This document shows, one piece after another, positions 2,425 through 43,847 of a stretch of 64,000 bases of DNA. Both the position numbers and the translations under genes were made by a program. Numbering within the stretch: the stretch's first letter is position 1; each line of letters begins with the position of its first letter. The notes under the pieces are model-generated. The model saw only the letters and a program-made list of their open reading frames with translations. It was not told where the DNA came from and searched no databases. The DNA lies in assembly GCA_031835245.2 (NCBI GenBank), contig JAVKOQ020000040.1, forward strand, positions 1 to 64,000, given 5' to 3'. Source of the DNA: Balamuthia mandrillaris (Eukaryota).

Positions 2425-2511
2425 CTAGGTAGGAATAAAATAACAATAACAACAAAAACAACAGTAATAACAATGTAAGCGCTTTTAAAAAACGCTCACT
2501 TGGAAGGCAAT

Positions 2512-3017: not shown

Positions 3018-3891
3018 GGCACTTGGTTGTAAGCCCACTATTACCTGACTTTTTCTTTTTTGTTTTTTTCCCTTGGAAGTTCCCGCTTTTCCCTTTATCC
3101 CCTTTCACACACACTTGCAGTTTCTTTCTTCTTTCTTTTACTTTTTTTTCTGCTTATTGGTATTCAAACCAAAAATGCCAAAAAATGCCAAATTTTGAAT
3201 GATGGATTATTTGGGATAAATTCCGCTTGAGGTTCAAAAAATTAATTTCTCCGCATCATAGCATTTACTGTTATTAAAAGTAAGTTCGTTGGAAAGAACA
3301 CATTTCATTCTACAAAAACCTTTTTTATTTTATTTTTTACTTGAAATACATCATAATAATTGCTATCCTATCACATTTTTCCATAATGGCTGCTGTTTCT
3401 GCCAACAATTCGCAAAGTCCTAGATTTGATTGGCACCGCTGCGCCAAAACGGTGCAGTCGGCGCAGCCTTTTGCAGCTTCAAATGCTCCATCACATTGTA
3501 TTCACATGCAAAATGGTTGACAATCCCATTATCTACAGCTTTTCCCCTTCAAAAGAATACTTTGTTCAAGATCGTAACTTTAAATGTGATCTAGAAAGGC
3601 TCTTACCAAAAATGGTAATAATCCCCTAACCCTAACAGTTTATAAAACGGATTGCTAGTGGTTTTGAAGGAAAGAATAAAGAGAAACAAATATAACTTCA
3701 CTAGATTGTATTAGAGAAAGAATTAAATCAAATATTGCAACATTTCTAAGAACATGTAGACAAGATTTGTGGGCTGTCTGTCTGAGTTAAAGTGCAAACA
3801 CTTGGGTAAGAGATGTTACTATTTTTTTTGACTCGAGAATGACATTAGTGCAAATGCTAGAGGTACTGTGTGTTAAAAGACAGTCTCTCCT

Positions 3892-16244: not shown

Positions 16245-17653
16245 TTAATACTCTTCTTGTTCTTCTCCCTCGCTGGTATGACCGTTGACCTCATCGCCAT
16301 CCGTGAGAGGCGCGTCAACAAAGGCACTCGATGTAAGAGAATTAGCAGCTACCACGTCCGAGTTGATGACATCAAAGCGAGTGCCGACGCAATTGGCCCG
16401 TTCCTTGAGGAAGAAGACCCAGCTGACCATGTCCTCCTCCGTGTCGGCTTTCACTTTTTTCACGTAGCTCTGCTTGTTGCCGTAGTGAATGGCGATAACG
16501 TACTTGGCTTTGACGAGCTTTTCCTCCGGCACCTCTATGCGAGCTCCTTTCAGGTCGATGCTGAACTCCGGCGTGGGGCCTAGGTCTTGCTTTGTGTCAA
16601 AGCAGTGCAGAAATGCAGCGTCTGTGAGCACAAAGTAAGCTTCCTTCCAGTTGCTTTTCTTGATCTTTCCTTGACGATGCAGTTTGCCCTCACGATGTAC
16701 AGAAGTCACCTCAGCGCCTGTTTGTTGTTGAGAGGATCAGTTGATTACATTGAAAAGCAGAAAAGTACGAAATGGATTGAAGGAGCAGAGAGCCTTAAGA
16801 TAGAACAGAAAAAAATGAAATCAGTACGGAACGACGTTGGTACCTTTGTAAGGGAAATTAAAGTTGTCTGCTATTTCCATGTTGGTCCAAATGGTGTGAT
16901 CAGTGACGCCAGTCTGAGCAAGGTATTCCTGAAAATCGGATTCAACATTTATTGCGGCAAGAGCGTCTGCCACTTTCTCAAACTCTTTCTGAGAGTTAGC
17001 GTGGTGTTGCTTTATCCATTGAATGAACCCGTTGATCAAAGCCTGCAAATCCTGCATGACAGTGGAATCGAATCTCTCTGTTTCTTCCATAACCTGGTAA
17101 AAAAAATGGGAGTAAGCAGAGAACTACACGAAAATGATGGTATTTGTGTCAAAAACAGGAGAACGAGAAATGGTGCTACCTTCATCATTTCCTGTCTGCA
17201 AGCGTTGAGATGGTTTAGATAGGTGGCGATGAGAGTGCGCAGCTTCATCTCGAGCAGCCAAGGGTCCTTTTGTGTTTTCGCTCCACGTCCTCCTGTTATT
17301 TCATCAAACCTGGTTAGATTTTTTATTGAAAGCATTGAAAGAATCCAAACGTACCTTTGGAGTTGGCCATGGTGCAATGCTTTTCATGACTTTCCATCAT
17401 GCTCAACATATTCTCCAAGTCCCTGCCTCTCTTTAGCTCTGTCTTGACAGCTGATATTCTGCTTTTCAACTCTTTCGCTTTTTTGGCTCGCTTGGCATGA
17501 AGGGCCTCGATATTCATCAGCACGCTCTCACGAATGTGTTGGGCAATAGCGTCGTGATGTCGAGTCATTTTTTGGGCGTAATCTCCCAGTGTATTAATGG
17601 CTTTCAATACCTCCCCTGCAGCAGAGGGAGAGAAGAGAGAGGAGCGAAGCAAG

Positions 17654-17688
<35 letters not shown>

Positions 17689-18090
17689 TTGTAAACAGAA
17701 GGAACAGAGGATTCTAAGCAAAAGTTTAGAACACAAACCAGTGCCAGGCTCCCTTTCTTCTCTTTTGGGGTCACTTTCCATGGTCGCTACAACCTTAGCG
17801 TAGTACTTAGCGGCCTTTGCCTCCACCTTTTCAATTGCTGATGCGGAGAAAAAAAAACAGTGATGAGACACTAAAGTGAGCTATACACACACCTTGGTCT
17901 TACCCGTGAACAATGGAACAAAACGGTTCAAGGTGACCTTCCATTGCCTTATTCTTTTGAATAAAAAGTCTGCCTTCTCTATGAATGTTTCGTCCTTCAC
18001 TCTTTCGTTGTTCTTGACGATGGCTGTGGTAATTGGCCTAAGCTCCTGTCTGGGGGGCAGAGGCGGTTCGATCTCATTTTGACCTTCCAT
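16245..18090 (-). CDS. BAR-like helical region plus C-terminal PH domain (Slm1-like architecture)
   Basis: Last exon is a clear PH domain (REGKLHRQGKIKKSNWKEAYFVLT..ADTEEDMVSWVFFL). Upstream exons are helical/coiled-coil with a KDPWLLE motif. Start codon uncertain. Confidence 0.7.
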
Positions 18091-19008
18091 TTTTACACTT
18101 GGCTCTTTGCTTGTAGTTGAGATCTTGATATTGCCCAGGGAGGGCGAGGGTGAGAGCGACCAGAGCAGTGTCAGTGTGAAGAGAGCAAAACAAAACAAAA
18201 AAAAAAATACACTCACATGCTTCCAGGCAGGTCCCTGTCTCTTATTTTGAAGTTGCTACGCTTGCCAACTGGCCACACAAAAAGCTCACTTCACAAGTGA
18301 GGAGAGGAGGAATAGTGGGCGCTACACTTTTCTTTGCTAAAAAAGTAGCAGCAGCAGCAGCAGCAGCAGATGTCTTCCCTCACTCTCTCGGTTTGGGTGG
18401 AGGCGTAGGCGTAGGGAGGAGGAGGAGAAGGAAGATGGAGAGAAGAGGCCTCGTTTTTTTCCGTTTGTTTTCTGTCATCCTTTTCTGTCGGATATTTAAT
18501 TAGATCCGCAAGGAAATTTCACACAAGGCGAAAATTCCCTCTCTCCTCTCCTCCCTTCTCCCCTCTCTCTCTGTCCTACACTCATTCTCTTCTGTCTCAT
18601 CGTGTCGTTGGAAAGAGCCATGCATGGAGAGGAACTCCCAATTTATTCTTCTCCACTCCTTCTGCGCTGTTCTCTCGTTCTCTTCTCTCCTCTCCCTCAC
18701 TCTCTTTTTGAGGCGTTTTGTGGCTCCTTCCTTGTTGTGCAATGAATGAAATCGCTCCTTTGCGTCGCTGGGGCCCGAATTTACTGCGGCCTTCGGCCGC
18801 CTCTTCCTTGCCTCCTTGCTTTGATATTTTTTGTTATTTGTTACTGAAGTGAGTGGCAGTTGCAAGGAGTTTTCAGTAGGTGTCCTAAAATAGTCATATA
18901 GCCTTTATTTATGTATGTACAATAGCTAGCAAGCAACAAGGACAGCAAGAGTAAAAGCATCATCTTCATCGTCATCATCATCATCATCATCAGTATTGAT
19001 AGCATCCG

Positions 19009-20079
19009 TTAATGATGATCATCAAAGCAGATCTGGAGTTCTTGCGGTGTTTCCTGGGCATATCTCGAGGAAAGCACCAAGGAGCACAGGTCCTTGGTCC
19101 TGCAGTTACGTAGCCTTAGGAGCACTTGGGAAGGAAGCACGGGCAGAGCAAGTAACTCTCTCTCCAACTGGAGAGCAAAGTCACCCCAGAATACCAGCTC
19201 AATCTGGTTTTTTTGTTGTAGTTGCAGCAATGAAGGATGACTGGCCTCATCTTCGTCCTCAGCACCAGCAGCGACCACTCCAGCAGCAGCAGCAGCAGCA
19301 TCGTCATCATGGTCCCATACTTGTATAGTTGCCACAGGGACTTCTGCGTCTGTTGGTGTGGTCACCCAGCGCACAGCAGGCAGTGCTTCCAGCTTGTCAT
19401 CAAGAGAGAGCCTGGCTTCAATCGATACCGCGCAGAACAGGGGCAGGTACTGCACAAGCCCTAGCGGAACCCTTGGAAGCCATTCCCGTTTCTCTTGGAC
19501 TCGCAGCAGGGTAGCCCTTTTCACAGATATCCAACAGTGATGAGGGTAACGGGGCCACCGAGCTGATTGTGCAGCATGCAGTTCGCCACTCTTCCAATCG
19601 TAATTCATCAGCTGAAAGACAGTTCCCAGTTCTAAAGGAGTCAAAAGCTGTCGCAAAGCTCCCCAGGCCACAAGTTGTACCATGGCATGGGTATCTGCTT
19701 CCAGGGCAGCCACGGTTAACGGATGTTTGGGTGGTGGTTGGGATTCTGGCAGACTCGTTGATTTTCCGTTGACAGCAATAACAATCAAGGATAACGGAAC
19801 AGGTTTTTTTGCATCCATCGCTTGTTGCAGTCGGATTGGGTGGGGGGTGACAGAGCGGCCTGAGGAAGAAGAAGAAGAGGAGGAGAAGGAGATGGCAGCG
19901 GCGGTGGCAGCAGCAGCAGCAGCAGCAGCAGAAGAAGAAGTAGAAGCCGAAGTAACTTCAATGGTTTCCTTTCCCTTTGGCTCTGTTTTGGACCTTTTTT
20001 TGGAGTGGGCTGGCGCTTTTTCCTTGCTGCTGCTGCTGTTGTTGTTGTGGTTGACCGTTGTCGTGTCTTTTCGTTTCAT
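19009..20079 (-). CDS. RPA70-like tandem OB-fold ssDNA-binding protein (Helitron gene)
   Basis: 356-aa intronless ORF with two OB-like segments: LEADTHAMVQLVAWG..LELGTVFQLMN and TIQVWD..IELVFWGDFA..VLLRLRNCRTKD..LSS, resembling RPA1 DNA-binding domains. Inside the element and on the same strand as RepHel. Confidence 0.65.
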   Translation of the reverse strand: MKRKDTTTVNHNNNSSSSKEKAPAHSKKRSKTEPKGKETIEVTSASTSSSAAAAAAAATAAAISFSSSSSSSSGRSVTPHPIRLQQAMDAKKPVPLSLIVIAVNGKSTSLPESQPPPKHPLTVAALEADTHAMVQLVAWGALRQLLTPLELGTVFQLMNYDWKSGELHAAQSARWPRYPHHCWISVKRATLLRVQEKREWLPRVPLGLVQYLPLFCAVSIEARLSLDDKLEALPAVRWVTTPTDAEVPVATIQVWDHDDDAAAAAAGVVAAGAEDEDEASHPSLLQLQQKNQIELVFWGDFALQLERELLALPVLPSQVLLRLRNCRTKDLCSLVLSSRYAQETPQELQICFDDHH

Positions 20080-20695
20080 GTTGTTCTTGTTGTTATTAAT
20101 TAACTGATTAATGAATTGGTATTTATAGTTAGTTTGTTATAAACTTTGAAAAAACTTAGAAAAGACACCAAAGAAAGAACACAGAAAAGAGATATGCATT
20201 CTTTGAGGATTAACCATTTCAGACAATCAATCCATAGATATATTCTGGAAAGATTTTGGGAAAAGGATAAAGGAAACACAACCAATAAAAAGAAATTGCA
20301 GTTACAAGTTCATCTGGCAGAACACAAAAGGAACAAACTAGTAACCTCCACATGTATAAAAAAAATATCATCAAAACTTCTTCAATAAAACCAGTTAATA
20401 ATATTCCTTATAATAAGTAATAATAAGTAATAAGTAATAATAATAATAATAATAGCAGTAAAAAAGAGAGCAAATCAAAGAAAGAGAAAGAGAAAGAGAA
20501 AGAGAAAGAGAAAGAGAAAGAGAAACAATGAAAGAGAAACGATGAAAGAGAAAGAGAAAGAGAAAAAGAATATAGAGAAAGAGAATAGAGAAAAAAAAAT
20601 AGAAAAAGAAAAAGAGACATTTGTTCAAAGATGAATATAAATAGAAACAAAAAAAGGAAAACAGCCATCTCATTTTATTAAGCAAGTAGAGTGAG

Positions 20696-21489
20696 TTAGT
20701 TAGAAACAGCGGTGGCAGTGTAAAACATACTTTCATCAGTAAAAAAAACAATGCTGTGACGGGTGCCTGTCCACTCTGTAACCGAGTGCTCTAGCTCATA
20801 AGCTTTTAGAATATAAAAGTCGCCAGGGCGTGCATCAATATATTTGTTGTGGCTGTGTATTTCTACGAGTCCACCTCCCGATTCAAAGTCACCAAAGACC
20901 AGGACACCTACATAACCTTGCTTGTAAAGCTGCTTGTCCCTATGTTTGGTGCTGCGGTGTTGAACGTTTAGGGCTATGGTGGCAAAGGGATGAAAGTAAC
21001 GTTCTTCCTGAGGGACCTGGCTGAAGTCCAGAGCACCAGCATAGCGATCATAGACGTAAGGGCAGGCTTGACGAAAAGTGCGAGCGCACTTGGCCAGCAC
21101 CTTGCGATTGCTGACCAGCCAGGACATGGTCCCTTCCAAACAGGTATCGGGTATGATTTTCACGTGGGGTGAGCTTCGTCGCCAATGGCCCAGCATGATT
21201 TGACTGGAGCCTCTGGTGTTTTTGCCTGTGCCATGTGCTTGCCAATAGGCTGCAAACTCCTCTGTGGATTGGTTGAGGCGCTGGAGTTCGGTTGGACGGA
21301 GCACTGTTGGAAAAAGACGGGCCATCACGGAGGCATCTCGTTCGGAGGCCTGAGGAGCACGCCACTCCGTTACTCCCCCGTTTTGTAATGTGAGAGGAGC
21401 AGCAGTAGCTTTCAAAAGCGCTTTGTAGTGCTTATTGGATTGAGCTCCAGCGTAGGTTTCCAGATGCGGAGGAAGGTTTTTGGTTCGCT

Positions 21490-21578
<89 letters not shown>

Positions 21579-21976
21579 CGCTTTCTAGGAGGCTTCGGCA
21601 GGTTCCACTTGCTGAAGCATGTTGAGCTCTGTAAGGCTGTTGTCTCGGAGAACAACCCAAAAAATAAATAAATAAATAAGTTGGGAAAAAAAGAAAAAGA
21701 TAAAGAAAGAGCCGAAAGAGCACTCGATCCTCCGTAAAAAAGAGGAACCATAGTGAAAGTGAATGAAAGAGAAAAGAAATAAAAAAGAAAAGGAAAACCC
21801 ATACGTGCAGGTGCATAAACAGTGGTTGATGGGGAGACGGAAAAGGCGATATGATCAACTAGCAAAGCAGAACCTGTGGGAGGGGCAGAGGAGGCAGTGC
21901 TGCTCAGCGTGGTCATCTCTTGCATCCGCGCCCAAGCACTGTTACCAGAGAAATCAAATGATGAAGCGGGTTGCAT
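20696..21976 (-). CDS. 2-oxoglutarate/Fe(II) dioxygenase, TET/JBP-family-like (Helitron gene)
   Basis: PFATIALN..KHRD (HxD at 20936-20944), VFGDFESGGGL, PGDFYIL, EHSV (distal His 20786-20788) and TRHSIVFF (2OG-binding Arg followed by SxVFF). A probable in-frame intron at ~21640-21805 (GTATGG donor, pyrimidine-rich). Confidence 0.8.
21491..21577. repeat. (TTG)n microsatellite encoding poly-Thr in the dioxygenase
   Basis: Pure trinucleotide run visible in the sequence. Confidence 0.95.
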
Positions 21977-22337
21977 TTTGGTTGGTTGGTTGGTTGGTTG
22001 GTTGGTTGGTTGGTTGGTTGGTTGGGGTCGTTATTATTGCCTTTCACCTCTTGGTTTGTTAGTTCAAATTCAAGCAATCATTCTCTCACTTTGGTATCCT
22101 AGACACCAAGAAAGAGCATAGATCTCCTAGATTTCTGTCTGGTTTTGGACGAGAATTGAAAGAAAAGGTGAAAAAAAAATAGTTATGTCGACACCAAATA
22201 AAAATAATGGCCTTTTTTTGGCATGATCTTACAAATAAGGAGTTGTTCAACAAACAGACAGATAGCTAGATATCTAGCTATCTATAATCATGGAAGAGAA
22301 CGAGGAAAAGAAAGGACAATTTTTTTTTTTTGTAAAT

Positions 22338-22456
22338 TTAATTTTGTTTTTCTTTGCCCTTGTTTTTTTTCTGTGGCTGTTTTGCTTTTGTTTCCTGATC
22401 AGCAGGGTCCTCTAAGAAGTCCACACGGGGTACATGCCGCCAAAAGGAGAGACCGA

Positions 22457-22496
<40 letters not shown>

Positions 22497-23665
22497 AAAA
22501 GAAAAGGAGGAGGAGGAGGAAGAGAAAGAGGAGGAAGAAGAAGAAAAGCAAGGCAACGACAAAGGCTCGTAGCCAGCAAGCCACGTCAACAGGTCCGCAG
22601 AAGGAGAGAAGTTGTAAAGATGTTGAGTGGAGGAACATTGAAAAGGCAGGATGCGGATATCTGCAGCTTGACGCACCCGCGACAAACCCACGTAGAAGGA
22701 GGCATACTGGAGTTTGGGCAAGAACCGACCCGGCAGAGCGTTGAGGTCCAAGATGACCTTATCCAAGGTGGCTCCTTGGGCCTTGTTGAACGTCATTGCA
22801 AAGGCCATGGTCACCGAGATGTCCGAGCACTTGCAAGAGACAGTAGGGCGTAGGGTCACCTTGCGTTCTTTTTCTACGCGAATGGGAAGCACCACATACC
22901 CCTCTCCTCCACCGGCGCTTCCTGCCCGCTGCTGCTGTCCGAGTTGTGGCGGCGGCGGCGGCTGCTGCTGCTGCTGCAGCAGCTGGGGAAGGAGTTGATG
23001 CATGAGAGCATCGTGGCGGTGTTGAGGAGGGAGTTGAGCCTCCTTGGGCCAGGTGGCCACCCCGCCAGGAGGAAGGCTGCTCGCCATCACCATGACGTTG
23101 ATTGCTCTCGGCGGTTCTGGGGCTTCCACCACCTGCCCTGGAGCGGCAGAGCGCAGCGTGGCTTGCAGCTGTCGGGTGGCGTTGTGGGAAAAGACCAAAG
23201 AATGGAGGATGGCTGCCGTGCCGTTGGCCAACCCCCACATAGGATTGATGTTATGAAGCAACTGAGCGGGCGCCCCCATGACGAAGCAACCCCACAGCTC
23301 GGCCTGGGAGGCATACAGCCTCTCCGTGTCTTGGAGGCTGAGTTTTTGTTGAAGGTCGCTCTGCAGGGGCCGCTTCCACCGGATGACGGGCAGACCTTTG
23401 AGCTTGGCAAAGCTTTTGGCCCGAGAGTAGTTGAGCACCTCCCGTTGACGATTGCCCGTGACCAAAATGGTGGCCGTTTGCCATGCCACCGGATCTGCTT
23501 CCAGGTCCTGGGGTTGTAGCGTTTTGTAAAGTGCATTTGGTCCGGCAAACAGAGCAAAGTTCTGAGGTAGAACCGCCGTCGCCGCCGCCGCCGCTGTGGC
23601 GGATGAAGACGAGGAAGAAGAAGCAGAAGAAGCAGAAAACACAGAAGGTGGAGAAGAGCAAGAGT

Positions 23666-23699
<34 letters not shown>

Positions 23700-24539
23700 A
23701 CCCAGTAGACGTTGAAGGTTGGCATGAGATAACGGCCTTTTGTGAGCAGAGCGACAGGCGTTGACCACCGTGGTGTGAAGGGGATCACGGGCAGCTCTCA
23801 TCTGTTGAGTAAACTCCATCTTATGAAAGCAAGAAAAGAGGTAAGGTCCCCAACAAGTGGCGTTCTTGGGATTGAAGCACGGCCTGGTGCCACGAGACCG
23901 CTGCCTGCCCTTTAGAGTTCTAGGTGGCTGCTGTCGCTGTCGCAGTTGGCAGAGAGCCTTGTAGAGCGCCTCGTCGCCCACGGGAGGGATCTGGAACATG
24001 TCTCCCAGCAGCACCACCACCAACCCACCGAAAGGAAGGCTGGGTTGTTGTCGGATCTGGCGAAGGCGCCAATCGATTTGTGCCAAGAAGCTGGCTCCCA
24101 CCATGGACACCTCATCGATGAGCAGCACCTTGGTGTCCTCTCCCAGCAGGCCACGGAGGCGAGCCAAGCGCACGGCATTGGTGATGGGAGCCCAGGAGGC
24201 GGCTCGCTTGGCTTTGCCTTTATTTTCTGAAGCACGCGTCTCCTGCCGGCCACAGCCAATGAGGGAGTGAATGGTACGGCCGTGTTTGTGATGGGTGGCT
24301 GCCACGCCGGTGGAGGCCGTGGCGCAGATCTTGGAGGAGCCCAGCAGCTTGTGGAGGCATTGCGCGAAAAAGGTCTTGCCCGTCCCAGGGCCACCATGAA
24401 CAAAGAGCAAGGGAGCTGTTCTGTGAGGAAGTGGCGGCGGCAGCAGTGATGGCGGGGGAGATGGCTGTTCTGCTTCCATTATTCGCACCCCAACCGAAGG
24501 GGCCACTCCTTCTCCTTCTCCTTCTCTTCCTTCTCTTCT

Positions 24540-24577
<38 letters not shown>

Positions 24578-26513
24578 CTTGCAGGTTTTCCAGTTGCCAC
24601 ACCCATCGAACCACCATCTCCAAGGCCATCTTTTGTTGAGGTGTGGGTTGTTGTTCCTCCAACTCCTCCTTCAGACAACTCTCCATCAGCAAGCCCACCT
24701 CCTCTTGAGACCACCGATTGCAGAAGGAGGTTCGCTCGTCCTCTTGACTCTCTGTGTATGCATAAAGAGCTCCACGATCTTCTTTGGCAGCTGCAGCTTG
24801 TTGTTCTAGTATTCTGCTATCCAACTCCAGCTGCTCAATGGCGACGGCCATGCTGGCCGCCTGAGTAGCAGGGAAGTGAGAAAGGCTTGCCTCTATGTAG
24901 CTAACCTGTGGTAGGTTGTTGTTGTGGTTGTGGTTGTTATTATTGTTTTCATCATCATCATCATCATCATCATCATCTTGTAACTCGTCACCATCTATTT
25001 GGCTGTTACCTTCTTTTTCTTTTTCTTTTTCTTGTTCATTTTCTTCTAGGTTGGCGTTTTCGAAAGAAGAAGGAGAAGAGGAAGAAGCAGCAGCAGCAGT
25101 AGAAGAATCAGAAGCAAAGAAGGAGTTCATCCACTCTTCCAGGTTGGAGAGATAGGTATGACAAGCTTCGGTCTTGGGATCAGGAGCATCTCCTCTTGCC
25201 TTGATGCGTAACTCCTCAATCACAGCCTTTGCTTTTTGAAGGGCAGCTTCCTCTTCCTCATTGATGATGGTGCTTGCATGCTCATCCCCTTTTGTTCTTT
25301 CACCCTCCGTATCCGCATCATCATTCACCCCCTGGCGGCGAGCAGCAGCTTGAGTTTCTGCTTGGTTCCAGCTAACCACGGCTCGTGTGCGCCATTTGCG
25401 AGTCATCTCTTTGGCCAGAGAGGTGATGTTCATGCCAAGACTCACGTTGTGGATCCAACGAAGATAGCAGGACCCCACAAAGCTGCCCTCTGCTCGCAAC
25501 GCTTTCATCCATTGCAACAAAGACGCGTAGGAAGGGTCCACTGGCTGCTCCTCTGACCACGGGCGAAAGACAGCGGTGATGTAATGTGCCCAATGCTCAG
25601 CAGCACGTCTCCAAGAGGGCTTGTCTCGGAAGGAACCCGCAGGGAAGCGGGGTGCAGGACGGCCTGCCAAGATGGGAATTTGTTGTTTGGATCGCAGCTT
25701 TTGGTGGTGAGTCTGATAGTTAGGATGTGAAGGTGCAAAGGCAAAGATCCGGCTGGCCTTTCTTCCTGCTGCATGTCGTTCTGGAGAAGAGGTGGAGGAG
25801 GAGGAGGAGATGGAGGAAGAAGAAGAAGAAGAAGAAGAAGAAGAGAGTGAAGGCGTCTTTGTGCTTGTTTTGGGTTGGATGACAATGAGTGCACAATAGA
25901 GGTAGAAGCTGAGGTCGGCCAGTTCTTTGCCACGATGCAGATAATTGGTTGCTTGGTTCACAATGTAAGGTTTATGAGTTTCCTTACAGTAATAAACTTG
26001 GCCTACTCCTTCATCTTCCTCTTCCATCTGTTGTTGTTGTTGTTGTTGTTGTTGGTTTGATGAAGTCCAGGAGAACAAGTCTTCAAAGATGTTTATCTCT
26101 TCATTTGCTTTTGTTGTTTCTTGTTCTTCTAATTCTTCTTGTTCTTCTTGTTCTTCTTGTTCTTCTTGTTCTTGTTCTTCTTCTTCTTCTTCTTCTTCTT
26201 TTTCCTCTTTTTCTTTTTCTTTCTCTTTCTCTTTTTCTTGCTTTTCTTCTTCTTCCTCATTATCATCATCTCCTGGTTCCAAGAAGCCCTTTGCTCTGGC
26301 AAGACGGACCAAAGCCTTTACACCAGACCAAGCAAAACAAAACCATGTCTCATGGCTTTTAATGGTAGCATTATAGCCTAAGAGAATGGACATTGCTTGT
26401 GTTGCAGAAATCTGTTGAAACACAAACAAAAGAAAACAAAACAGGATAGGTGGCTTAAGATAATGGTGGGATAATAATAATAACAATAATAACAACAACA
26501 ATAATAATAACAA

Positions 26514-26577
<64 letters not shown>

Positions 26578-28731
26578 AAATAAAATAATAAACAAACCTC
26601 GCAACTTCCACTCAAATTGTTTGCAAGACGTGTGATAAGGTGCTGTCCTGTTCGCTCTGGCGTGCCCGAGTCATCTGCTTGAGAAGGATACTTGTGCACG
26701 GTTCGAAGTGCCTCATGGAAGAGGGAAAGAGAGTTGGTGATGGCCACCGCATCCTTGGTCACGTACTTGACCAGGTAGAAGACTACAGGACGTGCTTGTG
26801 CTTGAGCGCCCAGCAAAGCACAGTTGGTGTTGCAACCGGTGGCGTTGGCCAGCGCTCCTGAGAACTCGGCCACCTTCCCATCCTCAAGCAGCGGTCTTTG
26901 GGTCTCATAGATGATAAAGCGTTCATCTGGAGGAGGAAACGGTTCGCCAGGGTTGATACGCAAACATGGAGGAGGAGGAATGGGTTCATCCGTTTTCTCT
27001 GTTGGCATGCTTTCACCCTCCTTCATTTCGATCCACACTGGACGAGTCCTCTCCTGCACAGCACGATCAAAGCCCAGCCGACAGTAATACTGCCCATACA
27101 TCCCTTTACGACAGGTAGCGCTGTGGGTGTGAATTTGGGTGGCATCTGCAACATGAAACACGCGTTGACGGTAAGCACGCTCCAAGATTGGGTTTTCAGG
27201 AATAATGGGCATGTATAATCCTGCTCGATACACAGGGCCCTTTTCTTCTCGTCGCTTTTTTCCTTTTTTTTTTTTGTTTTTGTTTTTGGTTTTGTTTTTG
27301 GTTTTTTGTTTTTTGTTTGTTTGTTTGAAAGAAAGGATTATTATCATTCATTATTAAAAGAGAAAAGAAACAAAAAGAAAAGAAAAGAAAAGAAAAGAAA
27401 AGAAAAGAAAAGAAATAGAGGTGGTTACCTTCTTCATGGATATAGGCAGGCAAGCAAGAGAGAATCATGCTGTCAATGACAGCACAAACTCGTTCCACCA
27501 GCTCTTGATGATGAGCCACACTTTGGAGAAGCTGTGGCGGTAGGCCTCCCCACACCAAGGCGTGCAAATGCAAAGACCCACGCCCTTGCGTCTCAAACAC
27601 TCCGTAGTAAGCCACTGGGGTTCCCAAGATGCCCTTGGTCCGTGCAGAAACCGGCGGAAAAGAGCGTTTCTTCTTGCCTTGGTGGATGCCAAACAGGTCT
27701 TCCATCACCGCCTCAATCAAGCGATGGAAGAACTGCGCTGCTGCTGCTGGATTACGGGCCAGGATCTGGGCTCGTGCTCGATAGTTTGGCATGGGAATGT
27801 GAAGCTCTATAGCTTCCTCCTCTTCCTCTTTTCCTCTTTCTCCTCCTCCACTGCCGCCGCCGCCACCACTGCCGCCGCCACCGCTGCTGCTTCCACCGGG
27901 CCACGCATTGGAAAGGCGAAGCACCATGGGCGCGCTGATGTCGTCTGGAGAGATAGTCAGGAAGAAAGAAGGCATGCCAAAGCACTGAACCATGCCGTAG
28001 AGTTGACAGAGGCAGTGGCGTCGCTGAGCAGGACCAAAGGGCACCTTCTCTCCAGCCATATGAATATGAGGAAGCAAGAGGCTCATGATCCGTTTGGCCT
28101 CTTTGCTGTCTGGGGCCTGGATGGCCTCCTTCAGTCTCTGCTTGAAACCCGGCTCTGTTACCACGCTGGTGAATGCCGCGATAGAACTGGGATTGGCTTT
28201 GACCTTGGCGGCCACGCACCGGCAGGCCGTGTGGCGGACCAGCTGGTTGAAGAGCAGAAAGGCCAAGGAGGTGCTGTGCGCAAAGCGCAAAGAGAAATGG
28301 CGCATCAGAGAAGAAGTCCAAGAAATGGAAAGAGAGCCTTTCCCTGGAACGCCTTCCCCAAGGACAAAGAGCCAAGGGAAGGCTGCCGTGATGAGGTAGT
28401 CGTTTTGACCAAACTCGTTGATTGGCTCGCTCTCCCATCGTGCAACGATGGTGTTCTTCTTCTTCGTTTTCTTGCTGTGACTTGCTGCTTTGTCACCTTT
28501 CTCCTGCTCTGTGTGCTCGTTAGTGCCCTCTTCACCGCCATCTGCATCATCAGCATCAGCATCATCATCATCAATGGCCTTTGCAATGCTTCTTAAGACT
28601 TGTGCTTCAATGGGGTGATCAGAGACCTATAAAAATGTGAATGAGAAAAGAGAAACAAGAGAGAAATAGAGAGAGAGGACACGAGAGAACATGAGAGAGA
28701 GAGAGAGAGAGAGGACATAAAAAAGAGAGAG

Positions 28732-28774
<43 letters not shown>

Positions 28775-29487
28775 TAATAAATACATACTTGATGAAGAAT
28801 GCGGTTGGTGAGCATCACGTCTTGCAGTCCTGCACTGGCCTCATCTGCTTCTGCATCATCGGGATGGCCTTCTGGGTGAGGACGCGTCCTTGCCACATTG
28901 GAGTTGGAGCACTGTTCAATGCTCAATGTCTCCTCATCCTCAATGCAATGCGTGGTATCCAACAGCCGGTCAGGAATGGCTTGAAGCTGCTGGTTCAGCT
29001 CCTCATCAAAGTCCAGCACTCTGATGTCCTCATACAAGGGGTGCACTTGCTTCAAGACTTCCAACCACCGCTGCACCACCCCCACGCGAACTCTCAAAGC
29101 CTCCAGCCCATCACTCAGCTCGGGTTGACGTTCTCGCCAGGCGGTTGTTGTGGAACGAAACCTCTGCCACGTCTCCTTGGTTCCCAGAAAAACCACGCTG
29201 AGCATGTCTGTCACATCAACGGAGGGCAGGGTCTTGGCCAGTTGAACGGGGCCATCGTGGGGAAGAGCAATGACATGCCCAGAGAGGGCCTGTTGTTGGG
29301 TGCTTTTATCCATGCCTATCAACTTGATGCAGTGGCTGAACACTCTGACCGGCGCGATGATGGCTTTCTCCACCAAGGTCAGCTCTGGCAAGCCTAGTCT
29401 TTCTGGACAGCCCAAGTCACCCGAGTTGGCAATGGAGTAAGTCGGCAGCTTGTCCTTTTATTTATTTTTTATTTATTTTTGGTTTGT

Positions 29488-29559
<72 letters not shown>

Positions 29560-31427
29560 AAGAGAGAAAGAGAGAGAGAAGACCAAACCTTGCTGATTGC
29601 TGTTCTACATGGAAAACAAAGAGTGGCCTTGTTGTCTTTTACTTGCTCCTTGTACAAGTAATAGCCCTCCCCGTTCCACTCTGTCACCGTGAAAATGTCT
29701 TTCAGGCGATGCTCCTTCCAATCCGTGAAGGCATCAGGGTCAAGCTTGAGAAGAGAGAGCTCAGCCATGGGAACTTCACGATAGCACTCCTTTGGCGGCA
29801 CCACTGCATCAAAGTCCTTCGTCCCACAAGCAGCACAGATGTGCATCGGTGCGTTGAAGTCCATCTTCTTGTTGAACTCTCTCGTTCTTTGGGCGATCCG
29901 TTCCGTCGTCACCGTCTCCTCCTCAATCTCTTCGCACAGCTTCTCTGTGGCCTCGTCCATCGTCTCTTGTAGTGGTGGTGGTTCTGCGAGGTAGAAACGG
30001 CCGTAGCCTGTGCTCTCGCAGAAGAAGGAGATGGCACAAGCGACATCTCGCTCGTAGTTTTCCAACTGCTCCGCTGTTGGGGGCTGTCGTTGCGTCAACG
30101 TGGCCTGGTTGTTTTGCCTCCTTTCCCAATCCACACGCTCTAACTCCCGTTTGCGTCGCTTTCGTTGTTCATTCCTTTCTGCTGTTGCTTCTTTTTGTTG
30201 CTCCGCCTGTTGGTTGCATTGTCTTTCAGTCCTCCTTTTCCTCTTTCTTGCTTCCTGAGCTTCTTTCTGTTCTTGTGGCATTTGTTGTTGGCGGAGTTGT
30301 TCACATCTGCGTTTCCTTGTATTTTCGGCTTCTTTTTGTTCGGGTGTTTGATTTGCTCGTTGTTGTTGTTTTTGCTCTTTTCTCTTTTCTTTTTGTGCTC
30401 TCTGCTCTTGGGACGTCATTCTTTGTTTTCGTTGTTGCTCTTGCTCTTTCTTCTTTTCCCTTTGTGCTATCTGCTCTTGGGGCGTCATTCTTTCTTTTTG
30501 TTGTTGCTTTTGCTCTTTCTTCTTTTCTCTTTGTGCTGTCTGCTCTTGGGGTGTCATTCTTTCTTTTCGTTGTTGCTCTTGCTCTTTCTTCTTTTCCCTT
30601 TGTGCTATCTGCTCTTGGGGCGTCATTCTTTGCTTTCGTTGTTGCTCTTGCTCTTTCTTCTTTTCCCTTTGTGCTGTCTTCTCTTGGGGCGTCATTTTTT
30701 GCTTTCGTTGTTGCTCTTGCTCTTTCTTCTTTTCCCTTTGTGCTGTCTGCTCTTGGGGCGTCATTCTTTGTTTTCGTTGTTGCTCTTGCTCTTTCTTCTT
30801 TTCCCTTTGTGCTGTCTGCTCTTGGGGTGTCATTCTTTGTTTTCGTTGTTGCGCTTGTTCCTTTCTTCTTGCTCTGAGGGTCGCAAGTTGTTCAGGAGAC
30901 ATACTTTGTTGTCGCCGTTTGTATCGTTCCAGGTTTTTTTCTCTTTCAACTTGCTTTTGTTCTTCCGTCATTGCTGCTCTCTTCTCTCGTTTTCTTTTCC
31001 GGTCTATTGCAAGCTTTTCCTCCTTTGTTCGTGGCGGAACTGCTCTACTTTGTTTTTCAAGTGGTGGAGACTCGGTAGATGATGTTTGTGTGTTCACACT
31101 TGGGGTTTGTGAGAGCTCGGTGGGGGTTTGAGGTTGTTGTTGCTGTTGCTGTGTGGAAGGAAAGGTTTGGAGATACAAATGTCTTCGAAGAGGATACTGC
31201 GCTATTGCAGCTTGGCGTTCCACAGGAGTTAACAGTAAAAGGGGTAAGGGTGATGATGAAGGAAAAGATGTCAAAGAGGTTAATAAAGATGCAGGTGGTG
31301 CAGATGACGCAGATGACGCAGACAACATCGATGACGCAGATGACGCAGATGACACATATGATGCAGATGACACAGATGATGCAGAAAACGTAGAAGATGC
31401 AGAAAACATAGAAGACGCAAAAGACAT
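22338..31427 (-). CDS. Helitron RepHel transposase (HUH Rep + Pif1-family SF1 helicase), 5 exons
   Basis: Exons about 31427-29589, 29454-28789, 28626-27429, 27262-26598 and 26411-22338 join in frame at GT-AG sites. Cys pairs CAACG..CFPC, DUF6570-like LPELTLVEKAIIA, Rep motifs FFLTISPDD, ETQGRGSLHLHALVW, YLVKYVTK; helicase motifs HGGPGTGKT, LIDEVSMV, GDMFQIPPV, FAMTFNKAQGATL, YVGLSRVR. The start may lie further upstream. Confidence 0.93.
30350..30860 (-). repeat. 60-bp coding tandem repeat (~8 copies; MTPQEQTAQREKKKEQEQQRKQR-like) in the RepHel N-terminus
   Basis: Near-identical units such as TGCTCTTGGGGCGTCATTCTTTGTTTTCGTTGTTGCTCTTGCTCTTTCTTC recur with a period of roughly 60-70 bp. Confidence 0.85.
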
Positions 31428-31750
31428 AGAAGACGCAGAAGACGTAGAAGACGCAGAAGACGTAGAAAAGGCAGAAGATGTAGAAGACGCAGAAGACGTA
31501 GAAGACGCAGAAGACGCAGAAGACGCAGAAGACGCAGAAGACGCAGAAGACGCAGAAGACGCAGAAGACGCAGAAGACGCAGAAGACGCAGAAGACGCAG
31601 AAGACGTAGAAGACGCAGAAGATGTAGAAGACGCAGAAGACGCAGAAGATGAAGAAAAGGCAGAAGACGTAGAAGACGTAGAAGACGTAGAAGACGCAGA
31701 AGACGCAGAAGACTCAGAAGACGCAGAAGACGTAGAAAAGGCAGAAGATG
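31300..31750. repeat. 9-bp minisatellite (GAAGACGCA)n
   Basis: Directly visible; reads (SSA)n on the minus strand in the RepHel frame. Confidence 0.95.
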
Positions 31751-32249
31751 TAAAAGAAAAAAAAAGAGCAAGTAGTTGGTGGTGAATTGCTTGTTATTTG
31801 CTAGGCAGAACAAACAAATCAAAACAAACGAAAAGAAAAGGCAACAAAGGGAAAGAAAAGGCAACAAAAGGAGAACCGAAGTCTGCTTCTTTGACGCGTG
31901 CTGTACATTTTCGTGTGATTCTTTTTCTCTCCTTCAGTCTCCAGGAGCGTGTTTTTCTTCACTTTTTCTCCTCGTTTCTCTTTGTTTCTCTTCGTTGCTC
32001 TTTCTTCGGTTTTGGTGGCTGAGGTCAGCGCAGACGGAGGAGGCGGACGGCTGGCGGAGAGCGGAGACACAGGGTTTGTCTACAAAAAAGAAAATGAAAT
32101 GAAAGGGAAAAACGCGCAAAAGAGAAAAGGGAAAAGGCAAAGAGGCAAAGTAGACAAAAAAGAGCCGCGGCAGAGTCAAAAAAATAAAAGTCGACATGTC
32201 GGGATTAATTTCTGAAGGACCCTCTTACTCTAGCGAGTAAATTCGGGAA

Positions 32250-32585
32250 TGAAATCGCTCCTTTGCGTCGCTGGGGCCCGAATTTACTGCGGCCTTTGGC
32301 CGCCTGCCTGGTTTGCAGGAAGAGCAGTGCAAATGGGGTAGAAAAGGGAAAAGGAAAAAAGGGGAAGTGAGGTAAGCAAATCTCCTAAAATAGTCATGGC
32401 TGAGGTCAGCGCAGACGGAGGAGGCGGATGGCTGGCGGAGAGCGGAGACACAGGGTTTGTCTACAAAAAAGAAAATGAAATGAAAGGGAAAAACGCAGAG
32501 AAAAGAAAAGGGAAAAGTCAAAGAGGGAAAAAAGACAAAAAAGAACCGCGGCAGAGTCAAAAAAATAAAAGTCGACATGTCGGGA
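32250..32585 (-). mobile_element. Non-autonomous deletion derivative of the Helitron, 5'-truncated copy (336 bp)
   Basis: 32250-32304 matches 18747-18801; 32397-32585 matches the segment starting at 32016 but stops at GTCGGGA, ~45 bp before the terminus. Confidence 0.88.
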
Positions 32586-32969
32586 TGAAATCGCTCCTTT
32601 GCGTCGCTGGGGCCCGAATTTACTGCGGCCTTTGGCCGCATGCCTGGTTTGCAGGAAGAGCAGTGCAAATGTGGTAGAAAAGGGGAAAGGAAAAAAGGGG
32701 AGAAGTGAGGTAAGCAAATCTCCTAAAATAGTCATGGCTGAGGTCAGCGCAGACGGAGGAGGCGGACGGCGGGCGGAGAGCGGAGACACAGGGTTTGTCT
32801 ACAAAAAAGAAAATGAAATGAAAGGGAAAAACGCGCAAAAGAGAAAAGGGAAAAGTCAAAGAGGGAAAAAAGACAAAAAAGAGCCGCAGCAGAGTCAAAA
32901 AAATAAAAGTCGACATGTCGGGATTAATTTCTGAAGGACCCTCTTACTCTAGTCGAGTAAATTCGGGAA
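32586..32969 (-). mobile_element. Non-autonomous deletion derivative of the Helitron, complete copy (~384 bp)
   Basis: Has both ends: TGAAATCGC..CCCGAATTTACT plus hairpin on the left, and TTACTCTAGTCGAGTAAATTCGGGAA on the right (inverted repeat at 32956-32967). Confidence 0.9.
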
Positions 32970-33387
32970 ACATCTATAGGTTAGAACACCCACCAACATG
33001 TTTAACATTGTTCCGCTAGACTAAGTTTTAAAACAACAAAACAAACAAACCTTTTCAAGGGCAACCAACGTTGCTGCAGCAGGAGCTAGTGTCCCTTTTA
33101 GAACGATTGGAAGCAAAGATCAAAAACGGCCGCAAAATGGCTTCCAAGTTCCAACCGCGCTAGAGGGAACGACAGGGAAGAGAACAGGTCACCTTTGGCA
33201 TCCGTTCCTGCCGTTTTCTCTTTGGGCGCGATGAACCTTGTTCTTGTTCCCTTGTGTCTTGTCCCCTTTCCTTCCTTGGCTTTGGTGAGCAGGTCGTTAG
33301 GCCCTCGCTACTGCTCATGGCTACCTCACAGGTGCCACTCCATTATCTTTACGTCAGAACAAAATAAAAATACCAAAGAATTGAGAG

Positions 33388-35049
33388 ATGAGGGCAACAA
33401 ACCGGAGCCATGAATCCCCGCAGGCGGTGCGTCAGCGGAGCAGACACGTCCAAGAACGACAACGCCCGCCCCTTTTTTCTAAGAACACGGTGCACATCGA
33501 CGCTTGTACGTACATAAAATCACAATCGATTTGATTGTGATTTGTTTGCCAAATCAGCACTCACTCGATTGGTGTTTGCAGTGTCAGTGTTGAGTTATAA
33601 CGTGTTGGCGGTGAGGTACGCTAGAAAGGGATGGCTCCCTCATGCCAGTCGCAAAGTGTTGGACCCCAACTACCGTCGCCACAACCTGCTTCGTGAGATA
33701 CTCGATGCCCACGCCGACATCCTCTGTCTGCAGGTTTGTTTTTGATTTATTTTTTTGTTTTGCTCCTTTCTTTCTTTCTTCTTTTCTTATTTATAAAAAA
33801 GGAGGTAGATGAGTTCGAGAAAGAATGGAGAGAGCCGCTAGAACAAGCCGGCTATGAGTGTCAGTACAAGCACCGAACGGGCGGCCGCAAGGACGGCTGC
33901 TTGATAGCTTATCTCGCTCGCAAGTTTCGTTTGGTGGAGCGACGCGGCGTCAACTTCAACACCATCGGCAAGAAGGCGAAACGACGCTCGTTTCTCACTC
34001 AGAACGTGGCCCTTATGGTAGAGCTGCAACAGTTATGCAACAACCACGAGAAAGAAGCAAGGAACGAAGAAGAGAGAGAAGGAGAAGGAGAAGAAAGCGG
34101 AACATCATTGGTGGTGGCTTGTGTGCATTTGAATTGGGAGTGGGAGGATCTGAAGTTGCTACAAACGCTGAAATTGATGGAGGAACTGACTTCCTTTCGA
34201 GGCAAGTACATCCATCAGAAGAAGGAGAACAGAGAGCCGCTCCTCCCTCTTCTATTATGCGGAGACTTCAACGCCATGCCTCCGTCTTGTTGCGGCAGAA
34301 CAAACAAGCACGAGAACGAAACCCACAACGAAACCGAACACAAAAGCAAAAATGAAAACGGAAAGCGGAACACAGAGGAGGGTGATGAACACGAGAAACA
34401 GGAGAAAGAAGAGGAGGAGCACACACAGAAGGAAAAAGAAAAGGGGACGGAAAAAGAAGAGAAGGAGGAAAAAGAGGAGAAAAACAATGGAACGGACAAA
34501 GCTAACCAGATGGAAACGGAAATAGATGGAGAGGTTTATCAAATGCTGACTACTGGTGTCATTGACTTGTCAGGATTGGCCCCAAAACTTCGACAGAGAC
34601 TTCGTTTGCCATTGCATGTAACGCTGGCGCAACACAAAGGACACAAAGGAGAAAGTAACGAAGAGCCTACAAAGAGCAGAACAAACACGAAGACAAAACA
34701 GCAAAAGAGGAAGCTTCCTTCTGTAGCAAGCGCCTACAAAGAGGTGTTGGGAATGGAGCCACCTTTCACCAACCGAAAGCCCAACTTTCGTGGTACCTTG
34801 GACTACATATTTTACAGTCGAGACTCGGAAGAAGCAGGAGAAGGAGAGCAAGAAGGAACTCTTCTGGTGCCGACGGCTGTGTTGGATGTCCCTTCGGAGA
34901 AGCTTGTATTGGAACTTGGAGCATTGCCCAATCGTGTGTGGTCCAGCGACCACCTCATGCTCTGGGCCAGCTTTCTCGTTCTTCAACGTTGCGGCCATAC
35001 TGACACGAAACAAGCAATAACCAACAAGCTCAACAACAGCAGTGAATGA
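33388..35049 (+). CDS. EEP-superfamily phosphoesterase, CCR4/nocturnin/Angel/PDE12-like
   Basis: SYNVLA, DILCLQEVD (spliced), DGCLIAY, CGDFNA, TLDYIFY and SSDHL motifs; two short introns near 33507-33581 and 33734-33800. Confidence 0.88.
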
Positions 35050-42869: not shown

Positions 42870-43797
42870 CTAGTCCACGTACTCAGCAGTGTCGACGATG
42901 AGATCCTCAATAGCCCGTTGAAGGCGTCCAAAGAGTTCAGCAAAGGAAGGGCGTCGGTCCGGATCTTTGTGCCAACACTCTGTCATGATGCTGAAGATTG
43001 GTTCTGGACAGTCCTTTGGTTTTTGCAACCGTAAGCCCCATTCGCCCACTTGCTCCGCAACTTCTGTGTTTGACCTTTTTGCACAAGAGATGGTGAGAAG
43101 AAAGAAAGAAATGAAAGAAAAAAACGACAAGAAAGAAAGAAATGAAAGGGAAGACATACAAGCCAAAATAAGGCAAAGCGCCATCCGAAAACAGCTCCCA
43201 AAGAACGATGCCAAACGACCAAACATCTGACTTGCTGGTGAACCGACGATGCTTGAACGCCTCAGGAGCCGTCCATCGCACTGGCACCTTTCCTCCACTT
43301 TTGGCATTGTACACCACCTCTTCCCCGACCACCTGGCGGGCCAATCCCAGGTCCGTGACTTTGGGCATGAGCGTGCGTTGCTTGCCACGAAAGTCCATGA
43401 GCACGTTGCGCAGGGCCAGGTCCCTGTGCACCACTCCATATGCTGCCAAATGTTGCATTCCTTACGATGGACATCAGAACCGCAAAGTTATGGAGGAGAA
43501 GGATTAAAAAAAACAAGAAGAATAAGCTCAAGAACAATCGTTACCAGCAGCAATGCCCTTTGCGATGTTGAGTTTCTCAAAGGTGTCAAATTTGTACGCT
43601 TTAATATACTTGTCCAAAGAGCCATCCTCGATGAACTCAGTGACAAGGAGAAAGTCAGTTTCTCCGGAAGAGCCAGCACTACGAATGCATGTTCCCAATG
43701 GGAGAATCAAATGTGGATGGGGCTTTATGTTCCTTATAAGTAGAAGAAATGGTTGAGTACAGAACAAGAATAAGTAACATAGAAGTAATAAGAGGAG

Positions 43798-43847
<50 letters not shown>

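What the first reader, a model, noticed from the sequence alone, without database searches (positions are those of the whole stretch)
18747..32249. Apparently intact three-gene Helitron2-type element without an endonuclease domain
Seen: RepHel splices into one uninterrupted frame over 5 exons with HUH, YxxKY and helicase motifs intact, both accessory ORFs are open, and both ends are present. The protein ends after the helicase with no AP-endonuclease. Known: asymmetric terminal inverted repeats and insertion in T runs characterise Helitron2/Helentrons rather than TC..CTRR Helitrons. Inference: a potentially active protist family encoding initiator, helicase, SSB and DNA modifier, like a minimal replicon.
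Basis: partly seen in the sequence, partly recalled or inferred. Interest (0 to 1): 0.7.

Follow-up and report, generated by a model that had tools for sequence, protein, structure and literature searches.

The report
Intact amoeba Helitron2 with altered TET
An amoeba genome holds an intact 13.5-kb rolling-circle jumping gene, missing from this spot in two other samples of the species, that also carries a likely single-strand DNA-binding protein and a TET-type DNA-base oxidase whose base-reading residues differ from those of known methylation erasers, so it may act on a different base.

Summary
Observation confirmed. 18747-32249 is an endonuclease-less HLE2 (Helitron2-group) element; the host is Balamuthia mandrillaris by the source name of its TET protein. 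RepHel splices into one open frame with all catalytic motifs; an intronless relative confirms introns 1 and 4. DUF6570, the motif-2 serine and 12-bp asymmetric inverted repeats place it in HLE2. Corrections: two non-autonomous minis (32250-32969) sit head-to-tail at its 5' end, so the proposed circle junction is already chromosomal; the 3' hairpin lies inside, not outside, the inverted repeat. Contigs of two other samples skip the whole array. The cargo is a TET/JBP dioxygenase and a likely OB-fold protein. That pairing is known from Agaricus and Chlamydomonas Helitron2 elements, so 'minimal replicon' overstates it. New here: an amoebozoan host, and a TET that keeps its iron and 2-oxoglutarate ligands but has Leu where 136 of 149 relatives have Asp (the 5mC-reading slot) and Asp at the His297 slot. 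Its substrate is open; thymine is a live option. No spliced read was seen.

The parts
18747..32249 (-). Full-length HLE2 element, 13,503 bp
18747..18773 (-). 3' terminal 27 nt, identical in all three 3' ends; no stem longer than 3 bp. The last 5 nt may equally be target sequence
   Evidence: joints at 18751
18774..18785 (-). 3' asymmetric inverted repeat (12 bp)
18786..18800 (-). GC hairpin, 6-bp stem, 3-nt loop, directly upstream (inside) of the 3' repeat; stem kept in both minis while the sequence next to it has diverged
18883..18897 (-). 15-nt motif shared with both minis at a similar distance from the 3' end; marks the minis' deletion junction
19009..20079 (-). ORF3, 356 aa, likely tandem OB-fold ssDNA-binding protein (POT1/RPA-like)
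   Evidence: ESM Atlas 0.94, 168 of 256 features, 10 of 10 best named hits in one clan, but recognition score under the bar; no Pfam or PDB hit
20696..21976 (-). ORF2, TET/JBP-family dioxygenase; HxD 20944-20936, distal His near 20788, Arg 20761; probable in-frame intron 21637-21804
   Evidence: Pfam Tet_JBP E 1.3e-8, 34.7 bits against cut-off 34.9; Atlas 0.97; PDB best hits CcTET and NgTet1
22338..26411 (-). RepHel exon 5: end of Rep, Pif1 helicase motifs I-VI, stop
26598..27262 (-). RepHel exon 4 with YxxKY (26777-26763); acceptor at 27262 or 27220
27429..28626 (-). RepHel exon 3 with HUH motif (27594-27562), Helitron_like_N
28789..29454 (-). RepHel exon 2, DUF6570
   Evidence: E 5e-23
29589..31793 (-). 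RepHel exon 1 (open from 31793, first ATG 31427): 9-bp repeat 31300-31748, 69-bp (23-residue) repeat 30362-30870, CxxC..CxxC pair
32225..32249 (-). 5' end: TT, 12-bp inverted repeat (32247-32236) and an overlapping 6-bp hairpin (32240-32225)
32250..32585 (-). Mini B, non-autonomous, lacks the first 45-46 nt; begins at an internal TCCCGA that mimics the 5' end
32586..32969 (-). Mini A, complete 384-bp non-autonomous internal-deletion derivative; outer 5' end of the array

Best explanation
This is an intact endonuclease-less HLE2 (Helitron2-group) transposon with two short non-autonomous relatives stacked head-to-tail at its 5' end, and it has likely moved recently by rolling-circle transposition while carrying a likely ssDNA-binding protein and a TET/JBP-family base oxidase predicted to protect it from silencing. 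Shown: open RepHel, ends, cargo ORFs, the array, and its absence at this site in two other samples. From known HUH/Helitron biology (inferred here): the two-tyrosine Rep nicks before the T of the 5' end, the Pif1 helicase peels off one strand, the OB protein coats it, the hairpin plus inverted repeat signal the second nick, and the 3' end is joined to a T in the target. Inferred from the junctions: every 3' end is joined to a T, and two of three to the element's own 5' motif (TTCCCGA, or its internal mimic TCCCGA), so existing 5' ends act as preferred landing or cutting sites and build polar arrays. Least certain: the oxidase most likely modifies a 5-methylpyrimidine on element DNA; whether 5mC or thymine is open, because both base-reading residues are changed.
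For: One open frame, intact motifs. Intronless relative L001 matches exons 2-5 in order; exon 4 and exon 5 hits abut at L001 3415|3416; removing intron 4 raises the score against 7 of 7 homologues, and intron 1 removal aligns without a long gap. DUF6570 is an HLE2 marker (PMC11417382); motif 2 has the S of the Helentron group (PMC4067079). Ends repeated in three and two copies. Runs X16 and X13 each have a contig joining 18751 to the right flank (32968, 33043), and no RepHel exon-4/5 cover; X13 has a further 3' end that matches from exactly 18747 and continues in other letters. 9 of 18 listed runs (3 studies) hold RepHel, 6 runs of the same species label hold next to none. Run X9 (RNA by guess) has RepHel pieces with 0-3 differences and no depth on the right flank. 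TET identity. A second, truncated 85%-identical TET copy lies on another contig of the species (P0052). Mini B starts at the only internal TCCCGA of the 384-nt mini. Acanthamoeba, a relative, has DNMT1/3 and repressive 5mC on repeats (PMC12344493).
Against: No read or contig spans a splice junction. Introns 2 and 3 lie in variable regions; homologues do not fix the intron 3 acceptor (P0006 favours 27262 by 21 points, the other 6 are within about 10 points either way). X9 shows no depth on TET or ORF3. The letters at the empty site were not seen, and both joints keep 18747-18751, so the 3' end is uncertain by 5 nt and the other alleles may hold other DNA between the flanks. The 3' hairpin is on the wrong side of the repeat for the original Helitron2 definition. 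No labelled HLE1/HLE2 phylogeny was run. The OB call rests on one method. TET has Leu at a slot that is Asp in 136 and Asn in 6 of 149 relatives, which could be decay; 7 changed codons against the X13 copy are 3 silent and 4 replacing, which shows no clear constraint. In Acanthamoeba DNA transposons are not enriched in 5mC overall; 5mC in this species was not tested; CpG o/e of the element (0.63) equals the left host flank (0.65).
Confidence: 0.78

Rival explanations
1. A recently inserted but no longer mobile copy: frames are still open because decay has not had time to show, and the TET gene is a dying passenger whose Asp-to-Leu change destroyed base recognition.
For: Leu at the slot occurs in 0 of 149 relatives; P0052 is a truncated copy; no TET or ORF3 depth in X9, no element reads in X10; variant codons show no clear constraint.
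Against: The Leu codon CTT is two changes from any Asp codon, yet HxD, distal His, Arg and the stacking Phe are kept and the ORF is open; RepHel keeps its frame through 11 homopolymer runs of 6 or more residues.
Confidence: 0.3
2. The mobile unit is the whole 14.2-kb composite 18747-32969, with several termini, made by end bypass or by rolling past a terminator, rather than by separate insertions of minis at a 5' end.
For: Other samples lack the entire array; multiple termini and tandem copies are described for FoHeli.
Against: The minis differ from each other at 13 of 338 columns and from the full element at 7 of 235 and 10 of 189, and their 3' interior is unlike that of the full element, so they are not products of one copying event.
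Confidence: 0.25
3. A plasmid-like minimal replicon that multiplies outside the chromosome.
For: Initiator, helicase and likely SSB in one unit; joined-end amplicons are reported for FoHeli1.
Against: It is integrated, has four or five spliceosomal introns and non-autonomous derivatives; RPA/Ssb-like OB cargo is common in ordinary HLE2; the junction here is chromosomal. Copy number could not be measured.
Confidence: 0.06
4. The tandem minis are an assembly artefact.
For: No contig shown spans the junctions.
Against: The copies differ by many substitutions and indels, and mini B has a precise non-terminal start.
Confidence: 0.05

Closest known systems
TET/JBP-carrying Helitron2 elements: Agaricus bisporus (Kojima 2025, PMC12730594; abstract, passages, section 3.4 read) and Chlamydomonas Helitron2-2/-3_cRei (10.1101/2022.06.16.496473; passages read)
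   Same: HLE2 transposase plus a separate TET/JBP gene; proposed escape from methylation silencing
   Different: Amoebozoan host; HxD rather than the HxE of the PE type found in Agaricus; also carries a likely OB protein; Leu/Asp at the two base-reading slots
FoHeli1/2 and FoHeli3-5 of Fusarium oxysporum (PMC5148889; passages read)
   Same: No endonuclease, 12-bp asymmetric inverted repeats, 5' T start, 5' hairpin, a GCC-GAA-GGC hairpin core, self-insertion and multiple termini; motif 2 context YYG.xE.xxRGS like the fungal Hirsutella proteins
   Different: The 3' hairpin abuts the repeat from inside instead of including it or being absent; 13.5 kb with two cargo genes; about 30% protein identity to named fungal relatives
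Helitron2 as defined by Bao and Jurka 2013 (PMC3627910; passages read)
   Same: 5' repeat 0-2 bp from the end and part of a 5' hairpin; 3' repeat 20-30 bp from the end; starts with T
   Different: No hairpin downstream of the 3' repeat; target is T|TT, not TTTT|T/C
Helentrons and HINE/DINE-1 (PMC4067079; passages read)
   Same: S in motif 2, TT target, deletion-derivative partners, RPA-type cargo in some families
   Different: No AP endonuclease, no OTU; the F/Y-x-R signature before motif 2 reads YYG; HELIANO places HLE2 RPA upstream of RepHel, here the OB gene is downstream
NgTet1, CcTET, human TET2 (PMC4678852, PMC11804724; passages read)
   Same: HxD..H iron triad, 2-oxoglutarate Arg, stacking Phe (F295 slot)
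   Different: H297/H1904 slot is Asp (aligned); D234/N1387 slot is Leu (by spacing five residues after the first His; the His numbers of NgTet1 and TET2 are recalled)

Membership tests
HLE2 (Helitron2/Helentron group, broad sense) | RepHel with HUH, YxxxY and Pif1 motifs in one ORF | tested here: met
HLE2 (Helitron2/Helentron group, broad sense) | DUF6570 marker domain | tested here: met
   E 5e-23, above cut-off; marker per PMC11417382
HLE2 (Helitron2/Helentron group, broad sense) | Short asymmetric inverted repeats (11-18 nt) | tested here: met
   12 bp, 2 nt and 27 nt from the ends
HLE2 (Helitron2/Helentron group, broad sense) | Insertion between T and T, no target duplication | tested here: inconclusive
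   Flanks read T|element|TT; empty-site letters not seen, joints at 18751 leave 5 nt open
HLE2 (Helitron2/Helentron group, broad sense) | Groups with HLE2 in a labelled Rep/Hel phylogeny | not testable with these tools
   No labelled references on hand; an unrooted tree of 20 sequences puts it among unnamed metagenomic proteins
Helitron2 sensu Bao and Jurka 2013 | 5' hairpin involving the 5' repeat | tested here: met
Helitron2 sensu Bao and Jurka 2013 | Hairpin downstream of the 3' repeat | tested here: not met
   Best stem in the last 27 nt is 3 bp; the 6-bp hairpin is upstream
Helentron | C-terminal AP endonuclease | tested here: not met
Helentron | S in motif 2 and F/Y-x-R before it | tested here: inconclusive
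   S present, R absent
HLE1 (canonical Helitron) | 5' TC, 3' CTRR, A|T target | tested here: not met
TET/JBP dioxygenase family (PF12851) | Fold and HxD..H..R ligands | tested here: met
   Pfam 34.7 bits, 0.2 under cut-off; Atlas 0.97, 28 of 30 hits Tet_JBP, TM 0.79; 17 of 18 scanned relatives hit Tet_JBP
5mC-oxidising TET enzymes | Asp/Asn and His that read N4 and N3 of 5mC | tested here: not met
   Leu and Asp; roles from PMC4678852 and PMC11804724
5mC-oxidising TET enzymes | Activity on 5mC DNA | not testable with these tools
   needs an assay
OB-fold ssDNA-binding proteins (RPA/POT1) | OB fold | tested here: inconclusive
   Atlas supports; Pfam, PDB, PHROGs blank; fold failed, pLDDT 36.5

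The most novel reading that the evidence does not exclude
The element's TET/JBP enzyme is a re-tuned writer rather than a 5mC eraser: with Leu and Asp at the two base-reading slots it oxidises thymine (or another base) on the element's own DNA, and amoeba Helitrons use a self-written base mark, on arrays that grow by landing on their own 5' ends, to evade or redirect host silencing. In TET2 the hydrophobic change N1387I and the change H1904Q both shift activity towards thymine (PMC11804724), and a second two-copy TET family of this species also has non-standard residues (HxN, Gln at the His slot; P0070).
Probability: 0.18. Interest if true: 0.78.

Novelty: new variant of a known kind. Interest (0 to 1): 0.45.

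Why it matters
It extends HLE2 elements, and the transposon-plus-TET partnership, to Amoebozoa: Heringer and Kuhn (PMC8788227) found no RepHel in the amoebae they checked, Acanthamoeba included, and Kojima's survey covers fungi. Unlike the decayed TET-bearing Helitrons noted elsewhere in this scan, every ORF and both ends are whole, so the open questions (how HLE2 ends are read, what TET cargo does for a transposon) can be tested with natural sequence. The altered pocket offers a natural test of what sets 5mC versus thymine choice. The insertion differs between samples and sits between two divergent host genes, so it may serve as a strain marker.

Tried and rejected
No whole genome was held, so copy number and other insertion sites could not be counted. 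No RNA holder is listed on record; X10 (3 in 100 of the run read) gave only repeat-derived reads and none on unique flank, so it says nothing. The empty-site letters and flanks of other copies remain unseen. Single-sequence AlphaFold models of ORF3 and ORF2 failed (pLDDT 36.5, 37.8); no fold search was run on them. The Exo_endo_phos gene at 33697-35049 was rejected as a Helentron endonuclease: it is outside the ends and on the other strand. The 23-residue repeat recalls STPR by period (recalled) but Pfam gives no STPR hit. TpA or CpG erosion: Tyr 1.9% and codon use like host ORFs, CpG o/e like host; rejected. TET relatives: none kept from viral contigs or found in phages; 8 of the 9 nearest non-self relatives looked up are unnamed and one is 'hypothetical', so origin is unresolved. 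Exon 3 against PDB gave only linker matches. Exon 4 in metagenomes: 0 of 157 candidates. L001-L006 carry no TET or ORF3 match; L001's ends could not be found. Literature: 9 searches listed no report of a Helitron in Balamuthia or another amoebozoan, but only the top 7-25 rows were seen and one search missed papers that one search found. PMC10471605 has no occurrence of 'transpos' or 'Helitron'. HELIANO's held supplement has no amoebozoan genus searched for and no Tet_JBP; it may be cut. Repbase, Thomas and Pritham 2015 and bioRxiv supplements were not seen. Two papers sought by id were not held.
Full report
Verdict. The region is an intact, endonuclease-less HLE2 rolling-circle transposon with two cargo genes and two non-autonomous relatives stacked at its 5' end. 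The gene set is a known kind; the host lineage, the terminal layout and the TET active site are new variants. Interest 0.45.

Host. The only close match of the TET ORF among 143 candidates is P0001, 100% identical, named by its source as a hypothetical protein of Balamuthia mandrillaris. No whole genome was held.

RepHel. Five exons joined at GT..AG introns of 134, 162, 166 or 208, and 186 nt give one frame of 2921 codons (2799 residues from the first ATG; 2813 with the longer exon 4) and one stop. Pfam finds DUF6570 (E 5e-23), Helitron_like_N (2e-24) and PIF1 (6e-23), no endonuclease. Alignment with 19 of the 33 homologues shows the HUH, YxxxY and helicase motifs in register. An intronless 1990-residue relative on metagenomic locus L001 has the same three domains and matches exons 2-5 in order; the exon 4 and exon 5 hits abut at L001 3415|3416. 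Intron 4 is in frame and stop-free, but removing it raises the score against 7 of 7 homologues; removing intron 1 aligns with only a 5-residue gap. Intron 2 is forced by a stop at its acceptor. The intron 3 acceptor is open: five in-frame AGs exist, P0006 favours 27262, the other six homologues do not decide. No spliced read or contig was seen.

Ends. On the gene strand the element starts TT, then a 12-bp repeat that overlaps a 6-bp hairpin; the inverted copy ends 27 nt before the 3' end and is directly preceded by a 6-bp GC hairpin; the last 27 nt hold no stem over 3 bp. Random window pairs give such an inverted match 10 times in 20,000. This meets the broad HLE2 description (PMC11417382, passages) and the 5' features of Helitron2, but not its hairpin downstream of the 3' repeat (PMC3627910, passages). 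Fusarium elements vary in the same feature (PMC5148889, passages). Motif 2 has the serine of the Helentron group but not the F/Y-x-R before it (PMC4067079, passages).

The array. The 3' end occurs three times and the 5' end twice. Mini A (32586-32969, 384 nt) is 234 nt of 5' end joined to a 3' part whose last 56 nt and a 15-nt motif match the full element while the part between does not: a deletion derivative of a sister subfamily. Mini B lacks the first 45-46 nt and starts at the only internal TCCCGA, a mimic of the 5' end. A and B differ at 13 of 338 columns, so they are separate copies. Inference: 3' ends are joined to a T, and the element's own 5' motif is a preferred site.

Other samples. 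Of 18 listed runs, 9 from 3 studies hold half or more of the RepHel words and 6 of the same species label hold next to none; the best holder may be the source of the window. Four runs were laid. X16 and X13 each have one contig joining 18751 to the right flank and skipping 14.2 kb; the letters between are not given, and record lengths would allow up to about 240 and 100. Both joints keep 18747-18751, so those five bases may be target as well as end. X13 also holds a 3' end that matches 18747-18816 and runs on in other letters, and a TET-like piece with 9 differences in 225 nt, without RepHel cover at 90%. X9, guessed to be RNA, has depth in every bin from 22332 to 32411 and near-exact pieces, none on TET, the ORF3 core or the right flank: consistent with RepHel transcription, not proof.

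Cargo 1, TET/JBP. Pfam Tet_JBP 34.7 bits against a cut-off of 34.9; Atlas 0.97 with 28 of 30 hits Tet_JBP and TM 0.79 to an Ascomycota cluster; best PDB hits are CcTET and NgTet1 at E 0.006-0.02. A full search found 154 relatives at E up to 0.001, 150 listed. In an alignment of the 149 non-self hits the iron and 2-oxoglutarate ligands match the query (H 147, D 145, H 144, R 144), but the slot five residues after the first His is Asp in 136, Asn in 6 and Leu in none, and the query has Leu; the His297 slot is His in 84, Asp in 16, and the query has Asp. These two residues read N4 and N3 of 5mC in NgTet1 and TET2, and changes there, N1387I and H1904Q among them, shift TET2 towards thymine (PMC4678852 and PMC11804724, passages). 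The Leu codon is two changes from Asp. So family membership is met, membership of 5mC erasers is not. Three further proteins of the species appeared: a truncated 85% copy on another contig (P0052) and a distant two-copy family (P0070, P0201); their context is unknown. Selection on TET is inconclusive: 3 silent and 4 replacing codons against X13 (8 of 9 differences listed).

Cargo 2. ORF3 scores 0.94 to POT1/RPA-type OB clusters, all ten best named hits in one clan, but below the tool's recognition bar; Pfam, PDB and PHROGs are blank and the fold failed. Likely, not shown.

Mechanism. Shown: anatomy, array, absence in other samples. From established HUH/Helitron biology, inferred here: nick at the 5' T, helicase displacement, OB coating, termination at hairpin plus repeat, joining to a target T, possibly through a circle as reported for FoHeli1. 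Inferred: TET protects the element from silencing; my odds are about 45% 5mC-directed, 20% thymine or another base, 35% inactive or binding only. Acanthamoeba has DNMT1/3 and repressive 5mC on repeats, though not enriched on DNA transposons (PMC12344493, section read); this species was not tested, and CpG content gives no signal.

Comparison. TET-bearing Helitron2 elements are described in Agaricus bisporus (PMC12730594) and Chlamydomonas (10.1101/2022.06.16.496473); RPA, Ssb-like OB and 2OG-Fe(II) oxygenase cargo are described for HLE2 (PMC11417382, section read). Heringer and Kuhn report no RepHel in the amoebae they searched (PMC8788227, passages). My nine searches listed no amoebozoan Helitron; their limits are given under Tried and rejected. 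Earlier unchecked notes of this scan list decayed TET-bearing Helitrons in a diatom and another protist, which lowers the novelty of the pairing further and leaves intactness and the altered pocket as the distinctive points.

Noticed in passing
window 192-2309 (-): 705-codon intronless ORF with a weak phage-integrase SAM-like hit (E 3e-4), tyrosine-recombinase-like catalytic motifs and a chromodomain-like end (both read by eye, recalled patterns), beside a 149-bp tandem repeat at 2504-3038; possibly a tyrosine-recombinase transposon.
   Followed up: partly
window 17300-18750 and 32970-35049: The array sits between divergent host genes: a BAR-like gene on the left (-) and an Exo_endo_phos, CCR4-like (recalled) gene on the right (+); it may affect their shared promoter region.
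   Followed up: no
window 37839-40673 and 42919-45638: Two copies of a 2.8-kb stretch, 82% identical; the two ORFs scanned have no Pfam hit.
   Followed up: no
window 33167-33400: A contig of run X16 changes strand here, suggesting an inversion next to the insertion site.
   Followed up: no
proteins P0070 and P0201: A second two-copy TET/JBP family of the same species, about 31% identical to ORF2; P0070 has HxN in place of HxD and Gln at the His297 slot.
   Followed up: partly
window 30362-30870: 7.4 copies of a 69-bp (23-residue) repeat in the RepHel N-terminus, STPR-like in period only.
   Followed up: partly
L001 677-6649 and 7158-8588: Intronless 1990-residue RepHel of the same clade followed by a 476-codon acidic ORF without a Pfam family.
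   Followed up: partly
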